Virus record (IMG/VR): IMGVR_UViG_2541047968_000001
Location: 1-5,732 of that record
Direction: 5' to 3' (one strand)
Source of the DNA: a virus
Lineage: Duplodnaviria > Heunggongvirae > Uroviricota > Caudoviricetes
DNA: 5,732 nucleotides
In this document: one piece after another, positions 1 through 5,732 of the stretch
Layout of the letters: each line of letters opens with the position of its first letter
How positions within the stretch are numbered: the first letter of the stretch is position 1
The notes under the pieces: model-generated
What the model was told of the DNA's origin: nothing
Databases searched by the model: none
Seen by the model: only the letters and a program-made list of their open reading frames with translations
Made by a program: the position numbers and the translations under genes

Positions 1-34
1 GATTCTGCCGCTGAAGATTTTATGAAGTCTCACG
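1..34 (+). repeat. Partial copy of an internal terminase large-subunit segment, identical to 2813-2846 and 5648-5681; identity ends at position 35 where Rz sequence begins
   Basis: Direct base-by-base comparison: window 1-34 matches 2813-2846 exactly and diverges at 35 (g here, t at 2847). In the terminase frame it reads [11 protein letters not shown]. Confidence 0.85.
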
Positions 35-62
35 GCTTTCCGCGTTTATCGTTATTCTGCTG

Positions 63-482
63 GTGGCCTGTGGAGCGCTGTGGATGGCAACAGACCATTA
101 CCGTGATAACGCGATTACCTACAAAGCGCAGCGCGATAAAAAAGCCAGAGAGCTGGAGCTGGCAAACGCCACCATTACTGATATGCAGGTGCGCCAGCGC
201 GATGTTGCTGCGCTCGATGCAAAATACTCGAGGGAATTAGCCGATGCGAGAGCTGAAAATGAAACTCTTCGCGCTGACGTTGCCGCTGGTCGTAAGCGCC
301 TGCAAGTCGCCGCCACCTGTGCAAAGTCAACGACCGGAGCCAGCAGCATGGGCGATGGAGAAAGCCCAAGACTTACAGCAGATGCTGAACTCAATTATTA
401 CCGTCTCCGAAGTGGAATCGACAAGATAACCGCGCAGGTTAACTACCTGCAGGAGTACATCAGGACGCAATGCCTGAAATAA
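63..482 (+). CDS. Rz: Rz-like i-spanin (inner-membrane spanin component), 5'-truncated: native start codon and first few codons replaced by the junction at 34/35
   Basis: Translation ...[44 protein letters not shown]... closely resembles lambda Rz as I recall it. The frame is open upstream to a TGA at 12-14 and encodes the membrane-anchor-like stretch [16 protein letters not shown], but has no ATG or GTG before GTG 63. Stop TAA at 480-482. Confidence 0.7.
244..429 (+). CDS. Rz1: Rz1-like o-spanin (outer-membrane lipoprotein), embedded in the +1 frame of Rz
   Basis: Lies wholly inside Rz in a different frame, the classic Rz/Rz1 arrangement. Has a signal-peptide-like N-terminus with lipobox VSAC and a proline-rich mature region ([13 protein letters not shown]). 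Start may be ATG 244 or ATG 259, which is preceded by a GAGAG Shine-Dalgarno-like motif. Confidence 0.65.
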
Positions 483-513
483 TTTTTTTGCAAATCACAA
501 AGTCAATTTAATG

Positions 514-536
514 AGCCTCGCGATGCGGGGCTTTTT
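514..536 (+). terminator. Putative intrinsic terminator downstream of Rz
   Basis: Stem 514-521 pairs with 525-532 (8 bp including one G-U), 3-nt loop, followed by TTTTT at 532-536. About 30 bp after the Rz stop. Confidence 0.45.
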
Positions 537-543
537 GCAATAA

Positions 544-568
544 ATGCGTACCGCAACGCATGTTTTTT
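544..568 (+). terminator. Second putative intrinsic terminator (tandem with 514-536)
   Basis: ATGCGT (544-549) pairs with ACGCAT (556-561), 6-nt loop, followed by GTTTTTT (562-568). The stem is short, so this is weaker. Confidence 0.35.
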
Positions 569-683
569 ACACCGAACCTGCCCCTTTGGAATGGGCCTTT
601 GAGGATACCAGTTAGTGCTGGCGAGCCTCGGTGGGCTGGTTTCCTATGCGGCAAAGGTTCATTTCAAATGGTAGGTAAACGTT

Positions 684-1205
684 ATGAATATCGTGCCACT
701 TAATTACAAAGGTGAAATTGTCAGTTTCAACACTGATGGTTGGATCAACGTCACAGGTGTTGCTGAGAGATTTGGAAAACGCATTGATAACTGGATGCGT
801 TTGGCAGAAACGCTTGAATACGTTCGTGCTTTAGACGAAGCGTTGACCGGGAAAGAATCTCAAATTTTACATCCCTCACAATCGAGGTATGTAAAAACCA
901 GCAAGGCACGAAAGGACAGGGGTGGTGGTACGTGGCTACATCCAAAACTTTCAGTTGCATTTGCCCGTTGGTGTGATGCTCGTTTTGCTGTGTGGTGCGA
1001 CCTGCACATTGATAGTCTGCTTCGCGGTGAACTGACTGAGCAGCAGAAATATGAGCAAGCATGTCGCATTCGCGATGACCGGAAATCAAAAGCCAGCAAT
1101 GGGGCAAGAGAGATGGCTCGCTGGCGATGGGATAAGCCGGTTATTGAAGCAAATGTTGAGTACTGGCGCGAGCAACTGCAGTTGACTCTCGATATCGCGT
1201 GCTGA
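684..1205 (+). CDS. KilA-N domain-containing protein (173 aa), likely accessory (moron) gene
   Basis: Intact ORF, ATG 684 with upstream AGGT, stop TGA 1203-1205. Motifs GWINVTGVAERFGKRIDNWMRLAETLEYVRAL and GGTWLHPKLSVAFARWCDARFAVW fit the KilA-N (APSES-like) DNA-binding fold as I recall it. G+C is visibly lower than in neighbouring genes (by-eye sample about 37% versus about 55% in the terminase gene). Confidence 0.65.
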   Translation: MNIVPLNYKGEIVSFNTDGWINVTGVAERFGKRIDNWMRLAETLEYVRALDEALTGKESQILHPSQSRYVKTSKARKDRGGGTWLHPKLSVAFARWCDARFAVWCDLHIDSLLRGELTEQQKYEQACRIRDDRKSKASNGAREMARWRWDKPVIEANVEYWREQLQLTLDIAC

Positions 1206-1815
1206 TGGCAAACGCAAAACTGCGTTATCTGAAAAATCAAAGCATTACGAGAACTGAGCAACGGCTATCCATTACAAAGCCCATCTACGGGTGGGCTTGA
1301 TAATGAAACCGGAATTTATTCTTGGCAACCAGTTACGGCAGTACCACGAAACAACCCAAGCCAGTAAGTGGGGAAATAACACTGGCAGCCACTGAAAGAT
1401 GAAGCTCCTGCCTTAAGGCAAAAAAGATTCTTTGTGGTGGCGGACTGATGGAAAGACATCGGTTATTGCAGAGGCCATTCAATGAGTGGTCTCGACAATG
1501 GCTTATACCCTACACGGGATAACTTAACTGATATCCCTTTTAAAGGATAAAGGTATTCAAGCCTGACACATCATGCGCTGTATCGTCGCCGTATTCCTGC
1601 ATTAACAGAGACCGCAGCCCGACGGGGAACTCCTCTGCGCGAGTGTGCGGAAATAATCAAAAACGATACACACCGGGGTTTACCGCGTTAACGGAGCGTG
1701 GCGTTGTCCCCTCATGGTCGCTCGTCCGGTGCGATGGTGGAAGAAACTGGATTTTGTTGCAACTGATAATCATTATCATTTTCTCGGGTCCTTTCCGGCG
1801 ATCCGGGCCGTTACG

Positions 1816-1827
1816 GGGCGGCGACCT
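1816..1827 (+). other. cosN: cosN 12-nt cohesive-end sequence GGGCGGCGACCT (staggered nick site of terminase)
   Basis: Exact match to the 12-nt lambda cohesive end, preceded by GTTACG as at the lambda right end. Confidence 0.8.
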
Positions 1828-1864
1828 CGCGGATTTTCACTATTTATGAAAATTTTCCGGGATT

Positions 1865-1875
1865 CATGTCCGGTT
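1865..1875 (-). promoter_or_regulatory. Candidate cosB R-element, inverted copy (CATGTCCGGTT on +, i.e. AACCGGACATG on -)
   Basis: Reverse complement of the 11-mer that occurs twice downstream. Its position between cosN and the small-subunit gene mirrors lambda R3. Confidence 0.4.
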
Positions 1876-1922
1876 TCTCTGCAAGTTAACCATATGAAAA
1901 ATATAAAAACATGCTTTCCATG

Positions 1923-1933
1923 AACCGGACATG
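1923..1933 (+). promoter_or_regulatory. Candidate cosB R-element AACCGGACATG
   Basis: Exact 11-bp repeat, separated from the inverted copy by an A/T-rich spacer (GAAAAATATAAAAAC) and from the next copy by 30 bp. Confidence 0.4.
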
Positions 1934-1952
1934 CGCAAAAAATAGACACTAA

Positions 1953-1963
1953 AACCGGACATG
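1953..1963 (+). promoter_or_regulatory. Candidate cosB R-element AACCGGACATG
   Basis: Exact repeat of 1923-1933, about 48 bp upstream of the small-subunit start, followed by the related ACCGGTTTT. Confidence 0.4.
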
Positions 1964-2010
1964 ACCGGTTTTGTTGTGATTGTGAGGTGAGAGTTTTTGC
2001 GAGGTGAGGA

Positions 2011-2520
2011 GTGGCTACGCAGACTGAAGTTGCCAGGCATTTAAGTCTGACCGATCGCCAGCTTCGCAGATTGCAGAAATTGCCGGGTGCCCCGATATCG
2101 AATAAGCGAGGGCAACTGGATCTGGATGCCTGGCGCGATTTTTACATATCGTATCTGAGAAGAAGTAAAAACGATGTGCCTGATGGCGATAGCGAAGACG
2201 ACTATGAGGAGAAATTGCTTATTGCCAGATGGGAACTGACAGCAGAACAGGCTGTTACACAGCAGTTAAAAAATGAGGTGTCAAAAGGAAAACTTATTGA
2301 CACCGGGTTCTGTATTTTTGCCCTCAGCAAGCTGGCAATGGCGTTATCCAGTACGCTTGATTCCATCCCTTTATCCATGCAGCGACAGTTTCCTGATTTA
2401 ACACCGCGCCATCTTGACCATCTGAAAACCCTTATTGCGAAGGGGGCAAATCAGTGTGCGCGGGCGGGGGATAAATTACCGGATTTACTCGATGAATATA
2501 TCAGAGCAACAACTGAATAA
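2011..2520 (+). CDS. nu1: Terminase small subunit (Nu1 homolog) with a divergent N-terminal DNA-binding domain
   Basis: The C-terminal half (GFCIFALSKLAMALSSTLDSIPLSMQRQFPDLTPRHLDHL...LPDLLDEYI) aligns with the lambda Nu1 C-terminus as I recall it; the N-terminal ~60 aa (MATQTEVARHLSLTDRQLRRL...) is helix-turn-helix-like but not lambda-like. GTG start at 2011 after GAGGTGAGGA; an in-frame TGA at 2005-2007 excludes a longer ORF. Stop TAA 2518-2520. Confidence 0.8.
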   Translation: MATQTEVARHLSLTDRQLRRLQKLPGAPISNKRGQLDLDAWRDFYISYLRRSKNDVPDGDSEDDYEEKLLIARWELTAEQAVTQQLKNEVSKGKLIDTGFCIFALSKLAMALSSTLDSIPLSMQRQFPDLTPRHLDHLKTLIAKGANQCARAGDKLPDLLDEYIRATTE

Positions 2521-4420
2521 TATGATGAGTGCTGTCACAACAGCATTACAGCCCCTGATAAGGGCATTGCCGGTGACGCCAGTTGAATGGGCTGATCAAA
2601 ATTATTATCTGCCTAAAGAATCTTCATATGGTGAGGGAGAATGGAAAACGCTGCCGTTCCAGATCGCCATCATGAACAGCATGGGGAATGATCAGATCCG
2701 GACTGTTAATCTGATTAAATCTGCCCGTGTTGGCTATACAAAGATGTTGCTGGGAGTCGCCGGGTATTTTATTGAGCATAAATCCCGAAACAGTCTGCTT
2801 TTTCAGCCCACGGATTCTGCCGCTGAAGATTTTATGAAGTCTCACGTGGAGGCGACGATTCGCGATGTTCCCTGCCTGAAAAAACTTTCTCCCTGGCTGG
2901 GACGTAAACATCGTGATAATACCATCACGCTGAAACGCTTTTCATCGGGTGTGGGCTTCTGGTGCCTGGGCGGCGCTGCCGCCAAAAACTACCGTGAAAA
3001 ATCCGTGGACGTGGTCTGCTATGACGAACTTTCCTCGTTCGAGCCGGATGTCGAAAAAGAGGGCTCGCCAACCCTGCTGGGGGATAAGCGTATTGAGGGC
3101 TCGGTATGGCCAAAATCCATTCGCGGCTCGACGCCTAAAATAAAAGGCTCCTGCCAGATCGAAAAAGCGGCCAACGAGTCGGCGCATTTCATGCGTTTTT
3201 ATGTGCCCTGCCCGCACTGTGGGGAGGCGCAGTATCTGAAATTTGGCGATGAGTCCACGCCTTTTGGCCTTAAATGGGAGAAGGACAGCCCCGAAAGCGT
3301 TTTCTACCTCTGTGAACATCATGGCTGCGTGATCTATCAGTCTGAGCTTGACCAGAGCAACGGGCGGTGGATCTGTGAAAACACGGGCATGTGGACCCGT
3401 GACGGCCTGACGTTTTTCAGCGCTGCGGGTAATGAAATTCCGCCGCCGCGCTCCATCACATTCCATATCTGGACGGCGTACAGTCCGTTCACCACCTGGG
3501 TACAGATTGTCTATGACTGGCTGGATGCACTGAAAGATCCCAACGGCCTGAAAACCTTTGTGAACACCACGCTGGGCGAGACCTGGGAAGAGGCCGTGGG
3601 CGAAAAACTCGATCACCAGGTGCTGATGGATAAGGTTGTGCGTTACACGGCTGCGGTGCCTTCCCGGGTGGTTTATCTGACGGCGGGCATTGACTCGCAG
3701 CGAAACCGTTTTGAGATGTATGTCTGGGGATGGGCTCCGGGAGAGGAAGCCTTTCTGGTGGATAAAATCATCATTATGGGGCGTCCCGATGAGGAAGAGA
3801 CGCTGTTACGTGTGGATGTGGCGATCAACAAAAAATACCGCCATGCAGACGGAACCGAAATGACCATTTCCCGTGTCTGCTGGGACACCGGAGGGATCGA
3901 TGGCGAAATTGTCTATCAGAGGTCAAAAAAACACGGTGTTTTCCGGGTGCTGCCGGTAAAAGGTGCATCTGTTTATGGCAAGCCGGTGATCACCATGCCA
4001 AAAACCCGCAATCAGCGGGGCGTGTATCTGTGCGAAGTGGGGACGGACACCGCAAAAGAAATTCTCTATGCCCGTATGAAAGCCGATCCCACGCCTGCGG
4101 ATGAAGCCACGTCGTATGCCATCCGTTTTCCTGATGATCCGGAGATTTTTTCGCAGACAGAGGCGCAGCAACTGGTCGCGGAAGAGCTTGTGGAGAAGTG
4201 GGAAAAAGGAAAGATGCGTCTGCTGTGGGATAACAAAAAGCGGCGTAACGAAGCGCTGGACTGCCTGGTGTATGCCTACGCGGCATTACGTGTGTCCGTG
4301 CAACGCTGGCAGCTTGATCTGGCTGTACTGGCAAAATCCCGGGAAGAAGAGACGACCCGGCCAACCCTTAAAGAACTGGCAGCGAAGCTGTCCGGAGGAG
4401 TGAATGGTTACAGTCGCTGA
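2492..4420 (+). CDS. A: Terminase large subunit (lambda gpA-like; ATPase/endonuclease)
   Basis: 642-aa product colinear with lambda gpA over its whole length as recalled: MNIS start, Walker A-like KSARVGYTK, CPHCGE, WTAYSPFTTWVQIV, FVNTTLGETWE, KKRRNEALDC. ATG 2492 matches the lambda MNIS start and overlaps the small-subunit gene by 29 bp; the track's 2435 start is a TTG extension. Confidence 0.93.
   Translation: MNISEQQLNNMMSAVTTALQPLIRALPVTPVEWADQNYYLPKESSYGEGEWKTLPFQIAIMNSMGNDQIRTVNLIKSARVGYTKMLLGVAGYFIEHKSRNSLLFQPTDSAAEDFMKSHVEATIRDVPCLKKLSPWLGRKHRDNTITLKRFSSGVGFWCLGGAAAKNYREKSVDVVCYDELSSFEPDVEKEGSPTLLGDKRIEGSVWPKSIRGSTPKIKGSCQIEKAANESAHFMRFYVPCPHCGEAQYLKFGDESTPFGLKWEKDSPESVFYLCEHHGCVIYQSELDQSNGRWICENTGMWTRDGLTFFSAAGNEIPPPRSITFHIWTAYSPFTTWVQIVYDWLDALKDPNGLKTFVNTTLGETWEEAVGEKLDHQVLMDKVVRYTAAVPSRVVYLTAGIDSQRNRFEMYVWGWAPGEEAFLVDKIIIMGRPDEEETLLRVDVAINKKYRHADGTEMTISRVCWDTGGIDGEIVYQRSKKHGVFRVLPVKGASVYGKPVITMPKTRNQRGVYLCEVGTDTAKEILYARMKADPTPADEATSYAIRFPDDPEIFSQTEAQQLVAEELVEKWEKGKMRLLWDNKKRRNEALDCLVYAYAALRVSVQRWQLDLAVLAKSREEETTRPTLKELAAKLSGGVNGYSR
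2803..2897 (+). repeat. Native copy of the 95-bp terminase segment that recurs at 5638-5732 (and in part at 1-34)
   Basis: Exact 95/95 identity with 5638-5732 by direct comparison. Encodes terminase residues about 104-135 ([32 protein letters not shown]). Confidence 0.9.
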
Positions 4421-4610
4421 ACTGCAGGCGCTGCGTCAGGCGCGCCTTGATTTATTAACCGGTAAACGGGTGGTGTCTGTCCAGAAAGATGGTCGCAGAA
4501 TTGAATATACGGCGGCCTCTCTGGATGAGCTTAACCGGGCGATCAATGATGCTGAGTTGGTACTGGGGACAACCCGCCGTCGCCGTCGTCCGCTGGGAGT
4601 GAGGTTATGA
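4404..4610 (+). CDS. W: gpW-like head-tail joining / head completion protein (68 aa)
   Basis: Same length as lambda gpW and a conserved core (LTGKRVVSVQKDGRRIEYTAASL..., C-terminal RRRRRP). GGAGG precedes ATG 4404. Overlaps the terminase stop by 17 bp and the portal start by ATGA. Confidence 0.88.
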   Translation: MVTVAELQALRQARLDLLTGKRVVSVQKDGRRIEYTAASLDELNRAINDAELVLGTTRRRRRPLGVRL

Positions 4611-5732
4611 AACGAAAGCCTGTCCTGATTGATGTGAACGGCGTTCCGCTTCGGGAGAGCCTCAGCTACAACGGGGGCGGTGCAGGATTTGGCGGGCAAA
4701 TGGCAGAGTGGTTGCCACCCTCGCAGAGTGCCGATGCGGCCCTGCTGCCCGCGTTGCGTCTGGGGAATGCCCGTGCAGATGATCTGGTGCGCAATAACGG
4801 AATAGCGGCCAATGCGGTGGCCCTGCATAAGGATCACATTGTCGGGCATATGTTTCTGATTAGCTACCGTCCGAACTGGCGCTGGCTGGGGATGCGGGAG
4901 ACCGCGGCAAAAAGTTTTGTCGATGAGGTGGAGGCGGCCTGGTCAGAATACGCAGAAGGGATGTTTGGTGAGATCGACGTGGAAGGGAAACGCACGTTTA
5001 CGGAATTTATCCGTGAAGGTGTGGGCGTTCATGCGTTTAACGGCGAAATCTTTGTGCAGCCGGTCTGGGATACGGAGAGCACGCAACTGTTTCGTACGCG
5101 TTTTAAAGCCGTGAGTCCGAAACGGGTGGACACGCCAGGACACGGTATCGGGAACCGTTTTCTGCGGGCCGGGGTGGAGGTTGATCGATATGGCCGTGCC
5201 GTTGCGTACCATATCTGTGAGGATGATTTTCCTCGCTCCGGGAGTGGACGATGGGAACGGATCCCGCGTGAACTTCCCACCGGGCGTCCGGCCATGCTGC
5301 ATATTTTCGAGCCGGTGGAGGACGGGCAGACCCGTGGGGCCAACCAGTTTTACAGCGTCATGGAACGGCTGAAGATGCTCGATTCCCTGCAGGCAACACA
5401 GCTTCAGTCGGCCATTGTTAAAGCCATGTATGCAGCGACGATTGAAAGTGAACTTGATACCGAAAAGGCCTTTGAATATATCGCCGGTGCGCCACAGGAG
5501 CAGAAGGATAATCCGCTTATTAATATTCTGGAGAAGTTTTCCAGCTGGTATGACACGAATAACGTGACACTGGGCGGTGTCAAAATTCCGCACCTTTTCC
5601 CCGGTGATGATCTGAAACTTCAGACCGCGCAGGATTCTCAGCCCACGGATTCTGCCGCTGAAGATTTTATGAAGTCTCACGTGGAGGCGACGATTCGCGA
5701 TGTTCCCTGCCTGAAAAAACTTTCTCCCTGGC
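4607..5732 (+). CDS. B: Portal protein (lambda gpB-like); native sequence runs only to 5637, after which the frame continues in frame into the repeated terminase segment to the window end
   Basis: Matches to lambda gpB as recalled: GFGGQ, LLP..GNARADDLVRNNG, KRTFT..IREGV..HAFNGE.FVQ, FEPVEDGQTRGAN.FYSVME..KMLD.LQ.TQLQSAIVKAMYAATIESELDT, LQTAQD. ATG 4607 follows GGGAGTGAGG. From codon 344 on, the translation is terminase sequence ([13 protein letters not shown]...). Confidence 0.85.
   Translation, partial: MKRKPVLIDVNGVPLRESLSYNGGGAGFGGQMAEWLPPSQSADAALLPALRLGNARADDLVRNNGIAANAVALHKDHIVGHMFLISYRPNWRWLGMRETAAKSFVDEVEAAWSEYAEGMFGEIDVEGKRTFTEFIREGVGVHAFNGEIFVQPVWDTESTQLFRTRFKAVSPKRVDTPGHGIGNRFLRAGVEVDRYGRAVAYHICEDDFPRSGSGRWERIPRELPTGRPAMLHIFEPVEDGQTRGANQFYSVMERLKMLDSLQATQLQSAIVKAMYAATIESELDTEKAFEYIAGAPQEQKDNPLINILEKFSSWYDTNNVTLGGVKIPHLFPGDDLKLQTAQDSQPTDSAAEDFMKSHVEATIRDVPCLKKLSPW
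5638..5732 (+). repeat. Second full copy of the 95-bp terminase segment, joined to portal sequence at 5637/5638; reaches the window edge so may extend further
   Basis: Exact identity with 2803-2897. The preceding base differs (c at 5637, t at 2802), which places the junction there. Confidence 0.9.

What the first reader, a model, noticed from the sequence alone, without database searches (positions are those of the whole stretch)
2492..4610. Overlapping gene boundaries through the packaging genes
The small- and large-subunit genes overlap by 29 bp, the large-subunit and gpW genes by 17 bp, and gpW and the portal gene by ATGA. This matches lambda's translational coupling and indicates this copy of the packaging operon is intact, in contrast to the disrupted edges of the window.
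Basis: seen in the sequence. Interest (0 to 1): 0.2.

Follow-up and report, generated by a model that had tools for sequence, protein, structure and literature searches.

The report
Overlapping phage 21-type packaging genes
The small terminase, large terminase, gpW and portal genes of this E. coli lambdoid prophage overlap by 29, 17 and 4 bases, the same layout already annotated for phage 21, so the feature is real but ordinary.

Summary
TerS runs 2011-2520, TerL 2492-4420, gpW 4404-4610 and the portal gene starts at 4607, so the overlaps are 29, 17 and 4 nt (ATGA).

The GenBank record of phage 21 (genes 1/2/3/4) has the same 29/17/4 layout. RefSeq and phage records that are 99% identical to the window annotate the same boundaries. 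Lambda has 26/4/4, so only the last junction matches lambda exactly.

In 139 related loci the TerS/TerL overlap is always 26 or 29 nt, and a start codon always sits at the position aligned with 2492. W/portal ATGA is invariant. The 17-nt TerL/W overlap is specific to the 21 lineage and reflects a reading-frame change at the TerL C-terminus.

The rival TerL start (ATG 2522/2525, just after the TerS stop) is not conserved. That residue is M, L or F in relatives.

TerL has no Shine-Dalgarno sequence; gpW and the portal gene have strong ones. Translational coupling is therefore plausible, mainly for TerS to TerL, but it is inferred, not shown.

"Intact" holds for TerS, TerL and gpW. The portal gene is cut at codon 344 by a chimeric window edge.

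The feature is already known and of low interest.

The parts
2011..2520 (+). Terminase small subunit gene (Nu1 family, 169 aa, GTG start). The N-terminal ~60 aa are unlike lambda Nu1 or phage 21 gp1.
   Evidence: ORF and start. Pfam Phage_Nu1 E=1e-18 over residues 49-150. 40-46% identity to 21 gp1 and lambda Nu1, in the C-terminal part only. Same CDS in NCTC9112 and PhiR12. Shine-Dalgarno GAGGTGAGGA, dG -7.6.
2492..4420 (+). Terminase large subunit gene (gpA family, 642 aa, ATG start).
   Evidence: Pfam GpA_ATPase 2e-54 and GpA_nuclease 5e-71. 93% identity to 21 gp2 and 66% to lambda gpA, aligned from residue 1. The start codon is conserved in all 139 scored loci.
2492..2520 (+). 29-nt TerS/TerL overlap. 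It encodes the TerS C-terminus (DEYIRATTE*) and TerL residues 1-9 plus part of codon 10 (MNISEQQLN-) in two frames.
   Evidence: Same length in phage 21; 26 nt in lambda. Lowest diversity in the region. No Shine-Dalgarno upstream (dG -3.3, 45th percentile).
2522..2527 (+). In-frame ATG ATG (TerL residues 11-12), starting 2 nt after the TerS stop. This is the only serious alternative TerL start.
   Evidence: Not conserved: residue 11 is M, L or F in relatives, and lambda and 21 have no start there. No Shine-Dalgarno.
4404..4610 (+). gpW-like head-completion / head-tail joining gene (68 aa).
   Evidence: Pfam gpW 2.8e-22. 97% identity to 21 gp3 and 55% to lambda W. An in-frame TGA lies immediately upstream of the ATG.
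4394..4400 (+). Shine-Dalgarno sequence GGAGGAG for gpW, inside the TerL 3' end.
   Evidence: Anti-SD duplex dG -9.5 kcal/mol, top 1.3% of window positions. Phage 21 annotates an RBS at the same place.
4404..4420 (+). 17-nt TerL/gpW overlap. It encodes the last TerL residues (NGYSR*) and the first gpW residues (MVTVA).
   Evidence: Present in 82 21-type loci. Other lineages have +4, +1 or gaps of 1 to 4 nt, and their TerL ends with LSG/LAG plus one to three acidic residues, or with GG.
4607..5637 (+). 5' 344 codons of the lambda-family portal gene, truncated by a junction to a duplicated terL fragment.
   Evidence: Pfam Phage_portal_2 1e-74, covering model positions 2-300 of 354. 98.5% identity to the 21 portal over 344 aa. 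Homology to reference genomes stops at 5637.
4607..4610 (+). ATGA stop/start overlap between gpW and the portal gene, preceded by Shine-Dalgarno GGGAG..GAGG at 4595-4604.
   Evidence: Invariant in 114 loci with 21 distinct junction sequences. SD dG -9.0, top 2.8%.
1816..1827 (+). cosN-like 12-mer GGGCGGCGACCT, identical to the lambda left cohesive end. It marks the start of the packaging module upstream of TerS.
   Evidence: Direct comparison with the lambda ends.

Best explanation
**What it is.** This is the ordinary left-end packaging and head-completion module of a lambda-like cos phage of the phage 21 type, sitting in an E. coli prophage. The order is cos, TerS, TerL, gpW, portal, all on one strand in one late operon. 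The three gene junctions overlap by 29, 17 and 4 nt, the same layout as annotated for phage 21.

**What the overlaps encode.** They encode the ends of proteins that bind one another: the TerS C-terminus with the TerL N-terminus, and the TerL C-terminal portal-binding tail with the gpW N-terminus.

**How it most likely works (inferred).** TerL has no Shine-Dalgarno sequence. Its start lies 26 nt upstream of the TerS stop codon. TerL is therefore probably made at a low level that depends on TerS translation, either from ribosomes terminating TerS or through local unfolding of the mRNA. That would tie TerL output below TerS output, in line with the TerS2:TerL1 protomer. gpW and the portal gene have strong Shine-Dalgarno sequences embedded in the preceding gene, with ATG placed at or just before its stop. 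They can be initiated both by new ribosomes and by terminating ones.

**Origin of the 17-nt overlap.** It is a lineage-specific by-product of a reading-frame change near the end of terL. The change replaced the short, mostly acidic tail seen in other lineages with GGVNGYSR and pushed the stop 13 nt into the gpW gene.

**Shown versus inferred.** Shown: the coordinates, homology, conservation of starts and overlaps, and Shine-Dalgarno strengths. Inferred: coupling and its effect on stoichiometry. The confidence value applies to the identity and the boundaries; for the coupling part alone I would say about 0.5.
For: - **Coordinates and clean ORFs:**
- **Family assignments:**
- **Matching annotated boundaries:** phage 21 genes 1/2/3/4 have the same 29/17/4 overlaps. 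PGAP on NCTC9112 and the PhiR12 phage records give the same boundaries. Lambda is 26/4/4.
- **Conservation of overlaps:** the TerS/TerL overlap is 26 or 29 nt in 136/136 loci and ATGA is present in 114/114.
- **Conservation of the TerL start:** the aligned start is ATG or GTG in all 39 distinct 5' ends. In most lambda-type lineages no other in-frame start precedes residue 54-61.
- **Constraint on the overlap:** reduced diversity, 2/29 vs 73/301 variable sites, p = 0.036.
- **Shine-Dalgarno energies:** TerL -3.3 (background median), gpW -9.5, portal -9.0. TerL starts are generally weak across 30 contexts, with median -5.7 and only 3 at or below -6.6.
- **Interacting termini:** A N-terminus with Nu1 C-terminus, A C-terminus with B, and W with B (PMC3224144). 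The TerS C-terminus binds TerL and the protomer is TerS2:TerL1 (PMC4669245).
- **Coupling across long overlaps is documented:** phage fr coat/lysis, -38 nt (PMC12548453).
- **Overlaps are pervasive in lambda:** for example B/C 20 nt, S/R 17 nt and many ATGA junctions.
Against: - No experiment here or in the retrievable literature shows coupling for these genes.
- No unusually stable mRNA structure surrounds any of the three junctions (z-scores 0 to 0.9), so the RNA-unfolding form of coupling gets no support.
- gpW and the portal gene have strong Shine-Dalgarno sequences of their own, so their overlaps may not matter for expression.
- The TerL/W junction varies freely between lineages (17, 4, 1, and gaps of 1 to 4 nt). 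That argues against selection for a particular overlap there.
- Under the scanning model a terminating ribosome prefers the nearest start. In this window that would be ATG 2522, not ATG 2492.
- From memory (not retrievable here), Sampson et al. 1988 attributed lambda late-gene expression levels chiefly to each gene's own initiation rate.
Confidence: 0.9

Rival explanations
1. TerL really starts at ATG 2522 (or 2525), 2 nt after the TerS stop (TAA-T-ATG-ATG). There is then no TerS/TerL overlap, and TerL is made by classic short-range termination-reinitiation.
For: Two in-frame ATGs lie immediately downstream of the TerS stop. ATG 2492 has no Shine-Dalgarno. In the scanning model the start nearest to the stop codon is used, as in the fr coat/lysis experiments (PMC12548453). 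Met11 is present in most members of the window's own lineage.
Against: ATG 2522/2525 have no Shine-Dalgarno either (dG -2.1 and +0.4). Residue 11 is L or F in close relatives (L108, L110, L114, L020). Lambda and 21 have no start there. In most lambda-type loci the next in-frame start is at residue 54-61, inside the conserved ATPase region. The start aligned with 2492 is conserved in all 139 scored loci. Residues 1-10 (MNIS-x-x-Q) are conserved at the protein level with lambda gpA. The gpA N-terminus is the TerS-binding segment.
Confidence: 0.06
2. The overlaps are neutral by-products of genome compaction and indel drift in a tightly packed late operon. Each gene is initiated independently at its own ribosome-binding site, and the overlaps have no regulatory role.
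For: gpW and the portal gene have strong Shine-Dalgarno sequences of their own. The TerL/W junction varies from +17 to -4 nt among lineages with no obvious consequence. Overlaps of 1-34 nt are scattered all over the lambda genome. There is no special RNA structure at the junctions.
Against: The TerS/TerL overlap and the W/portal ATGA are conserved across lineages whose TerL is only about 62-66% identical to the window's. TerL lacks a usable Shine-Dalgarno in most lineages, which makes fully independent initiation less likely for that gene. Overlapping pairs that encode subunits of complexes are typically coupled (titles and abstracts of PMC6728339 and PMC10666635).
Confidence: 0.3
3. The apparent gene structure is unreliable because the window is a mis-assembled or chimeric sequence.
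For: Both window edges are chimeric. Positions 1-34 and 5635-5732 duplicate terL 2813-2846 and 2800-2897.
Against: Positions 59-5637 are collinear with the NCTC9112 chromosome at 99% with a single gap, and 1574-5637 with phage PhiR12_2_star at 99.2%. The region of the finding (2011-4610) lies well inside this collinear block, and its proteins are identical or nearly identical to those of an isolated phage.
Confidence: 0.02

Closest known systems
Phage 21 head gene operon, genes 1, 2, 3, 4 (GenBank M81255; also OL657228)
   Same: Same gene order and the same three overlap lengths: 29, 17 and 4 nt. The TerL/W junction sequence is identical, and the W/portal junction differs at one base just downstream of the ATGA. 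TerL is 93% identical, gpW 97% and the portal 98.5%.
   Different: The small subunit and the first ~27 TerL codons are of a different type. Nucleotide homology to phage 21 begins only at window 2574, and TerS is 169 aa against 182 aa with 40% identity in the C-terminal part. The candidate cosB repeats also differ.
Lambda Nu1-A-W-B (NC_001416)
   Same: Same families, order and strand. The TerL start lies inside the TerS 3' end at the homologous position (MNIS...). W/B share ATGA. The cosN 12-mer is identical.
   Different: The overlaps are 26/4/4 rather than 29/17/4. Lambda A starts with GTG. Lambda gpA ends ...LSGEDE* at the W start, whereas here TerL reads on to ...LSGGVNGYSR*. Protein identities are 46-66%.
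Escherichia phages PhiR12_1/2/2_star/4/5 (PV340549-PV340554) and the E. coli NCTC9112 prophage
   Same: 98.6-99.1% nucleotide identity. TerS, gpW and the portal N-terminus are identical, and TerL matches at 638/642. The annotated boundaries are the same.
   Different: These records have a complete portal gene and no duplicated terL fragments. PhiR12 phages lack the KilA-N insert between Rz and cos.
Coupled overlapping gene pairs in general (ATGA/TGATG pairs; phage fr/MS2 coat-lysis with -38 nt spacing)
   Same: Co-directional genes whose stop and start overlap. The downstream start lacks a Shine-Dalgarno (TerL). The partners are subunits of one complex.
   Different: Dependence of downstream translation on upstream translation has not been measured for this operon. 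gpW and the portal gene have strong Shine-Dalgarno sequences of their own.

Membership tests
Lambda-like cos packaging/head-completion module (TerS Nu1 - TerL gpA - gpW - portal gpB), phage 21 subtype | Small terminase subunit of the Nu1 family | tested here: met
   PF07471 E=1e-18, 67.9 bits against a cutoff of 30, covering residues 49-150. The N-terminal DNA-binding part is not covered and differs from lambda and 21.
Lambda-like cos packaging/head-completion module (TerS Nu1 - TerL gpA - gpW - portal gpB), phage 21 subtype | Large subunit with gpA ATPase and gpA endonuclease domains, full length | tested here: met
   PF05876 2e-54 and PF20454 5e-71. 642 aa, as in 21 gp2, aligned end to end with lambda gpA.
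Lambda-like cos packaging/head-completion module (TerS Nu1 - TerL gpA - gpW - portal gpB), phage 21 subtype | A gpW gene and a lambda-family portal gene immediately downstream, on the same strand | tested here: met
   PF02831 2.8e-22 and PF05136 1e-74. The portal gene is present only as its first 344 codons.
Lambda-like cos packaging/head-completion module (TerS Nu1 - TerL gpA - gpW - portal gpB), phage 21 subtype | cos site with a lambda-like 12-base cohesive-end sequence upstream of TerS | tested here: met
   GGGCGGCGACCT at 1816-1827 is identical to the lambda left end, and the flanks are closely similar. Actual cleavage cannot be tested.
Lambda-like cos packaging/head-completion module (TerS Nu1 - TerL gpA - gpW - portal gpB), phage 21 subtype | Phage 21 junction layout (29/17/4 nt) and TerL C-terminus ...GGVNGYSR | tested here: met
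Lambda-like cos packaging/head-completion module (TerS Nu1 - TerL gpA - gpW - portal gpB), phage 21 subtype | Phage 21 packaging specificity (gp1 DNA-binding domain and cosB R boxes) | tested here: not met
   The TerS N-terminus is unrelated to 21 gp1, and nucleotide homology to 21 starts only at 2574. The candidate R boxes (CATGTCCGGTT) are of a different sequence. The head genes are therefore 21-type, but the DNA-recognition end is a different type.
Translationally coupled gene pairs (termination-reinitiation) | Co-directional genes with overlapping or abutting stop and start codons | tested here: met
   Overlaps of 29, 17 and 4 nt.
Translationally coupled gene pairs (termination-reinitiation) | Translation of the downstream gene depends on translation of the upstream gene | not testable with these tools
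   This needs reporter fusions or ribosome profiling. No published measurement for these genes was retrievable.
Translationally coupled gene pairs (termination-reinitiation) | The downstream start is poorly able to recruit ribosomes on its own (weak or absent Shine-Dalgarno, or a sequestering structure) | tested here: inconclusive
   Met for TerL (dG -3.3, background median). Not met for gpW (-9.5) or the portal gene (-9.0). No sequestering structure at any junction.

The most novel reading that the evidence does not exclude
In this TerS/TerL lineage the sequence TAA-T-ATG-ATG, directly after the TerS stop, may capture terminating ribosomes. The phage would then make two TerL proteoforms. One is full length, starting at 2492. 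The other is a delta-10 form, starting at 2522/2525, that lacks the first ten residues of the N-terminal region through which gpA binds TerS. The short form could modulate terminase assembly. Met11 is retained in most members of the lineage, which does not exclude this, but it is replaced by L or F in close relatives.
Probability: 0.05. Interest if true: 0.3.

Novelty: already known. Interest (0 to 1): 0.07.

Why it matters
It matters little beyond correct annotation.

- **Annotation.** The result confirms that TerL of this widespread E. coli prophage type starts inside the TerS gene. It also confirms that the TerS, TerL and gpW genes are full length and essentially identical to those of isolated phages (PhiR12 series), so the packaging enzyme genes are probably functional.
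- **Evolution of the junctions.** The comparative survey gives a small, tidy picture. The TerS/TerL overlap and the W/portal ATGA are fixed features of the whole lambda-like family. The TerL/W junction drifts, and the 17-nt form marks the phage 21 lineage. There it coincides with a different TerL C-terminal, portal-binding tail.
- **Open question.** If translational coupling were demonstrated, it would be one more example of overlap-linked expression of subunits that bind each other, which is already a well-known theme.

Tried and rejected
- **Alternative TerL starts.** I listed every in-frame ATG/GTG/TTG between the upstream stop and codon 30 (TTG 2435, GTG 2456, ATG 2492, 2522, 2525). I then compared them across 39 distinct homologous 5' ends. 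Only 2492 is conserved. The upstream candidates are absent in lambda-type loci, where the frame opens at the start codon.
- **RNA structure at the junctions.** I folded 100-nt windows around all three window junctions and around the lambda and 21 TerS/TerL junctions. None is more stable than shuffles (z 0.0 to 0.9). I therefore dropped a start-sequestering hairpin as an explanation.
- **Known RNA families.** Rfam at gathering thresholds finds nothing in the window.
- **Experimental literature on coupling in the lambda late operon.** Full-text searches found none. Liu et al. 2013 and Sampson et al. 1988 are not held. PMC5737525 does not mention Nu1, overlap or coupling.
- **Origin of the chimeric edges.** Exact searches for both junctions in IMG/VR, for the left junction in JGI metagenomes, and a megablast of window 1-90 against 5,426 E. 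coli genomes found no sequence spanning them. I could not decide between an assembly artefact and a sample-specific rearrangement.
Full report
**1. What is in the window**

The 5732-nt window is the lysis-to-head boundary of an E. coli lambdoid prophage. ORF listing and Pfam scans give these features:

| Feature | Coordinates | Evidence |
|---|---|---|
| Rz spanin gene, lacking its first codons | to 482 | PF03245 |
| KilA-N gene | 684-1205 | PF04383 |
| Non-coding stretch with a lambda-identical cosN 12-mer | 12-mer at 1816-1827 | |
| Nu1-family small terminase gene | 2011-2520 | PF07471, E=1e-18 |
| gpA-family large terminase gene | 2492-4420 | PF05876 2e-54; PF20454 5e-71 |
| gpW gene | 4404-4610 | PF02831, 2.8e-22 |
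| Lambda-family portal gene | from 4607 | PF05136, 1e-74 |

Positions 59-5637 are collinear with the E. coli NCTC9112 chromosome at 99.0% identity. Positions 1574-5637 are collinear with phage PhiR12_2_star at 99.2%. Some part of the window matches 3,902 of 5,426 complete E. coli genomes (35 hold at least 80% of it), so this kind of module is very common.

**2. Checking the observation**

A direct read of the sequence confirms all three overlaps.

- TerS ends at TAA 2518-2520 and TerL starts at ATG 2492, giving a 29-nt overlap.
- TerL ends at TGA 4418-4420 and gpW starts at ATG 4404, giving a 17-nt overlap.
- gpW ends at TGA 4608-4610 and the portal gene starts at ATG 4607, giving the 4-nt ATGA overlap.

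The gpW start is effectively forced. An in-frame TGA sits at 4401-4403, and the next in-frame start is 22 codons downstream. NCBI's PGAP annotation of NCTC9112 and the depositors' annotation of PhiR12_2_star use the same relative boundaries.

**3. Comparison with lambda and phage 21**

| Phage | Genes | Overlaps (nt) | Source |
|---|---|---|---|
| Lambda | Nu1 191-736, A 711-2636, W 2633-2839, B 2836-4437 | 26 / 4 / 4 | |
| Phage 21 (M81255) | gene 1 355-903, gene 2 875-2803, gene 3 2787-2993, gene 4 2990-4582 | 29 / 17 / 4 | |
| Window | TerS, TerL, gpW, portal | 29 / 17 / 4 | |

The window therefore reproduces the published phage 21 layout, not the lambda one. The TerL/W junction is base-for-base identical to phage 21, and the W/portal junction differs at one base just after the ATGA. 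Protein identities to phage 21 are 93% (TerL), 97% (gpW) and 98.5% (portal N-terminal 344 aa). To lambda they are 66%, 55% and 59%.

**4. Is the TerL start really 2492?**

The frame contains ATG 2522 and ATG 2525 just 2 and 5 nt after the TerS stop (TAA-T-ATG-ATG), so a non-overlapping start is conceivable.

I collected 146 sequences in all: the window, GTDB genome contigs, IMG/VR contigs, lambda, phage 21 and close relatives. In 139 of them the TerL N-terminus aligned to a start codon.

- In all 139 the codon aligned with 2492 is ATG or GTG.
- The TerS stop lies 26 or 29 nt downstream in all 136 loci where it could be scored. These comprise 33 distinct junction sequences, and TerL identity to the window falls to about 62-66%.
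- Among 39 distinct TerL 5' ends, lambda-type loci have no in-frame start upstream of the aligned codon. In most of them the next in-frame start is at residue 54-61, inside the conserved ATPase region. Phage 21-type loci also have no nearby downstream start.
- The position of Met11 in the window is M, L or F in relatives. This is what an internal hydrophobic residue looks like, not a conserved initiator.

ATG 2492 is therefore the homologous and almost certainly the functional start, and the 29-nt overlap stands.

Within the window's own lineage (28 distinct 330-nt segments) the overlap is the least variable part. Two of 29 sites vary, with pi 0.009. The TerS-only flank has pi 0.057 and the TerL-only flank 0.121. 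The count comparison is 2/29 against 73/301, Fisher p = 0.036. This fits a stretch that encodes two proteins at once.

**5. The other two junctions across the family**

The gpW/portal ATGA is invariant in all 114 scorable loci, which comprise 21 distinct junction sequences.

The TerL/gpW junction is not conserved:

- 17 nt in 82 phage 21-type loci;
- 4 nt in lambda;
- 1 nt (TAATG or TGATG) in many enterobacterial prophages;
- gaps of 1-4 nt in three others.

In the non-21 lineages TerL ends with ...LSG/LAG followed by one to three acidic residues, or with ...GG, right at the gpW start. In the 21 type the overlap length class changes from 3n+1 to 3n+2. TerL then reads ...LSGGVNGYSR*, running 13 nt further into the gpW gene. 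In the gpW frame the same bases read ...EE-TGA-ATG.

The 17-nt overlap is therefore best read as the by-product of a small frame-shifting indel near the end of terL, one that gave the 21 lineage a different C-terminal tail. The gpA C-terminus is the portal-binding end of terminase (PMC3224144, Table 2). From my own recollection, lambda and 21 differ in prohead-binding specificity at exactly this end (Frackman, Feiss and colleagues). I could not retrieve those papers.

**6. Mechanism**

*Shine-Dalgarno strength.* I scored anti-Shine-Dalgarno pairing for the 20 nt upstream of each start against all positions in the window.

| Start | dG (kcal/mol) | Rank among window positions |
|---|---|---|
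| TerL, 2492 | -3.3 | 45th percentile, effectively none |
| Alternative ATG 2522 | -2.1 | 65th percentile |
| Alternative ATG 2525 | +0.4 | 92nd percentile |
| gpW, 4404 (GGAGGAG 4394-4400) | -9.5 | top 1.3% |
| Portal, 4607 (GGGAG..GAGG 4595-4604) | -9.0 | top 2.8% |

Across relatives TerL starts are generally weak: median -5.7, with 3 of 30 contexts at or below -6.6. For gpW, 15 of 21 contexts reach that level, and for the portal gene 16 of 31.

*RNA structure.* None of the junctions has mRNA structure more stable than shuffled controls (z 0.0 to 0.9).

*Partners.* The products of each overlapping pair bind each other: A N-terminus with Nu1 C-terminus, A C-terminus with B, and W with B. The terminase protomer is TerS2:TerL1 (PMC4669245).

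*Precedent.* Coupling by terminating ribosomes is documented for overlaps as long as 38 nt, in the phage fr coat/lysis pair (review PMC12548453). It is common for ATGA pairs that encode complex subunits (PMC6728339, PMC10666635).

*My best account.* TerL translation depends largely on ribosomes that have translated TerS, which keeps TerL below TerS. gpW and the portal gene can be initiated both de novo and by reinitiation. This is inference. The same review notes that reinitiating ribosomes prefer the nearest start, which here would be ATG 2522, so the mechanism for TerL is not settled. I found no experimental test of coupling for lambda or phage 21 in the searchable literature.

**7. Is the operon 'intact'?**

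TerS, TerL and gpW are full length with no internal stops. Against the isolated phage PhiR12_2_star they match at 169/169, 638/642 and 68/68 residues.

The portal gene is not intact in this window. Homology to every reference stops at 5637 (codon 344 of about 530). There the sequence jumps into a 98-nt copy of terL 2800-2897. The left edge is likewise a 34-nt copy of terL 2813-2846 fused to Rz near its 5' end. Neither junction occurs in any of the related loci held here or in IMG/VR. The left junction is also absent from JGI metagenomes and from 5,426 complete E. coli genomes. The edges are therefore chimeric, through mis-assembly or a private rearrangement. They do not affect 2011-4610.

**8. 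Verdict**

The layout is phage 21's rather than lambda's. Coupling is plausible but unproven, and most credible only for TerS to TerL. The portal gene is truncated.

Overlapping junctions are pervasive in lambda itself: B/C 20 nt, S/R 17 nt, NinD/NinE 34 nt, and many ATGA pairs. Nothing here is new. It is a known feature of a known phage module.

Noticed in passing
window 1-34 and 5635-5732 (copies of 2813-2846 and 2800-2897): Both window edges are duplicated fragments of the terL gene. They are fused to Rz (junction 34/35) and to the portal gene (junction 5637/5638). Neither junction is found in the related loci held here or in IMG/VR, and the left one is also absent from JGI metagenomes and from 5,426 complete E. 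coli genomes. The cause is probably mis-assembly or a chimeric template, possibly a private rearrangement. Read as a circle, the portal end, 44 nt of terL and the Rz start would join up.
   Followed up: partly
window 4607-5732: The truncated portal ORF reads on without a stop through the duplicated terL fragment to the end of the window. As written, the sequence would therefore encode a portal-TerL chimeric polypeptide.
   Followed up: no
window 2011-2574: The small subunit and the first ~27 TerL codons form a separate mosaic unit. Nucleotide homology to phage 21 starts only at 2574. The TerS N-terminal ~60 aa match neither lambda Nu1, 21 gp1, N15 nor Gifsy-1. In the phage collection only five PhiR12 phages carry this TerS. 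This looks like a further packaging-specificity type in which the TerS C-terminus and TerL N-terminus travel together.
   Followed up: partly
window 1816-1970: The cos region contains a cosN 12-mer GGGCGGCGACCT identical to lambda (1816-1827). Candidate TerS-binding repeats CATGTCCGGTT lie at 1865-1875 (+), 1923-1933 (-) and 1953-1963 (-), with a one-mismatch + copy at 1960-1970. If these are the R boxes, their orientation pattern differs from lambda's R3/R2/R1 arrangement.
   Followed up: partly
window 244-429 (+), inside Rz (to 482): An embedded Rz1-like o-spanin ORF lies in the +1 frame of Rz. It has a lipoprotein-type signal and lipobox (LVVSAC) and a proline-rich region. This is another fully nested overlapping gene in the window.
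   Followed up: no
window 684-1205 and flanks (~500-1570): A KilA-N gene sits between Rz and cos. This slot is variable. PhiR12 phages lack it, and other E. coli prophages carry a GIY-YIG nuclease, a Rha regulator or IS elements there.
   Followed up: no
L001 7545-9136 (NCTC9112): In the closest complete genome the portal gene is annotated as a frameshifted pseudogene. That prophage copy may itself be defective, or the frameshift may be a sequencing error.
   Followed up: no
L100 and L117 (IMG/VR contigs), TerL/gpW junction: Two relatives break the 17-nt pattern. The L100 alignment is offset by one base at the junction. In L117 TerL ends early (...KSGKKRRPGQP*), 33 nt before gpW, which indicates a frameshifted terL.
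   Followed up: no
L010-L017, L029, L030, L039, L040 and others (genome-contig hits): Lambda-type terL sequences (66% identical to the window TerL, like lambda gpA) turn up in assemblies of unrelated taxa, including Shewanella, Pseudomonas, Oceanobacillus, Leeuwenhoekiella, Bradyrhizobium and Amycolatopsis. They often sit on ~48.4-48.5 kb or low-coverage contigs. I suspect lambda control-DNA contamination of those assemblies, but I did not check their identity to lambda directly.
   Followed up: no
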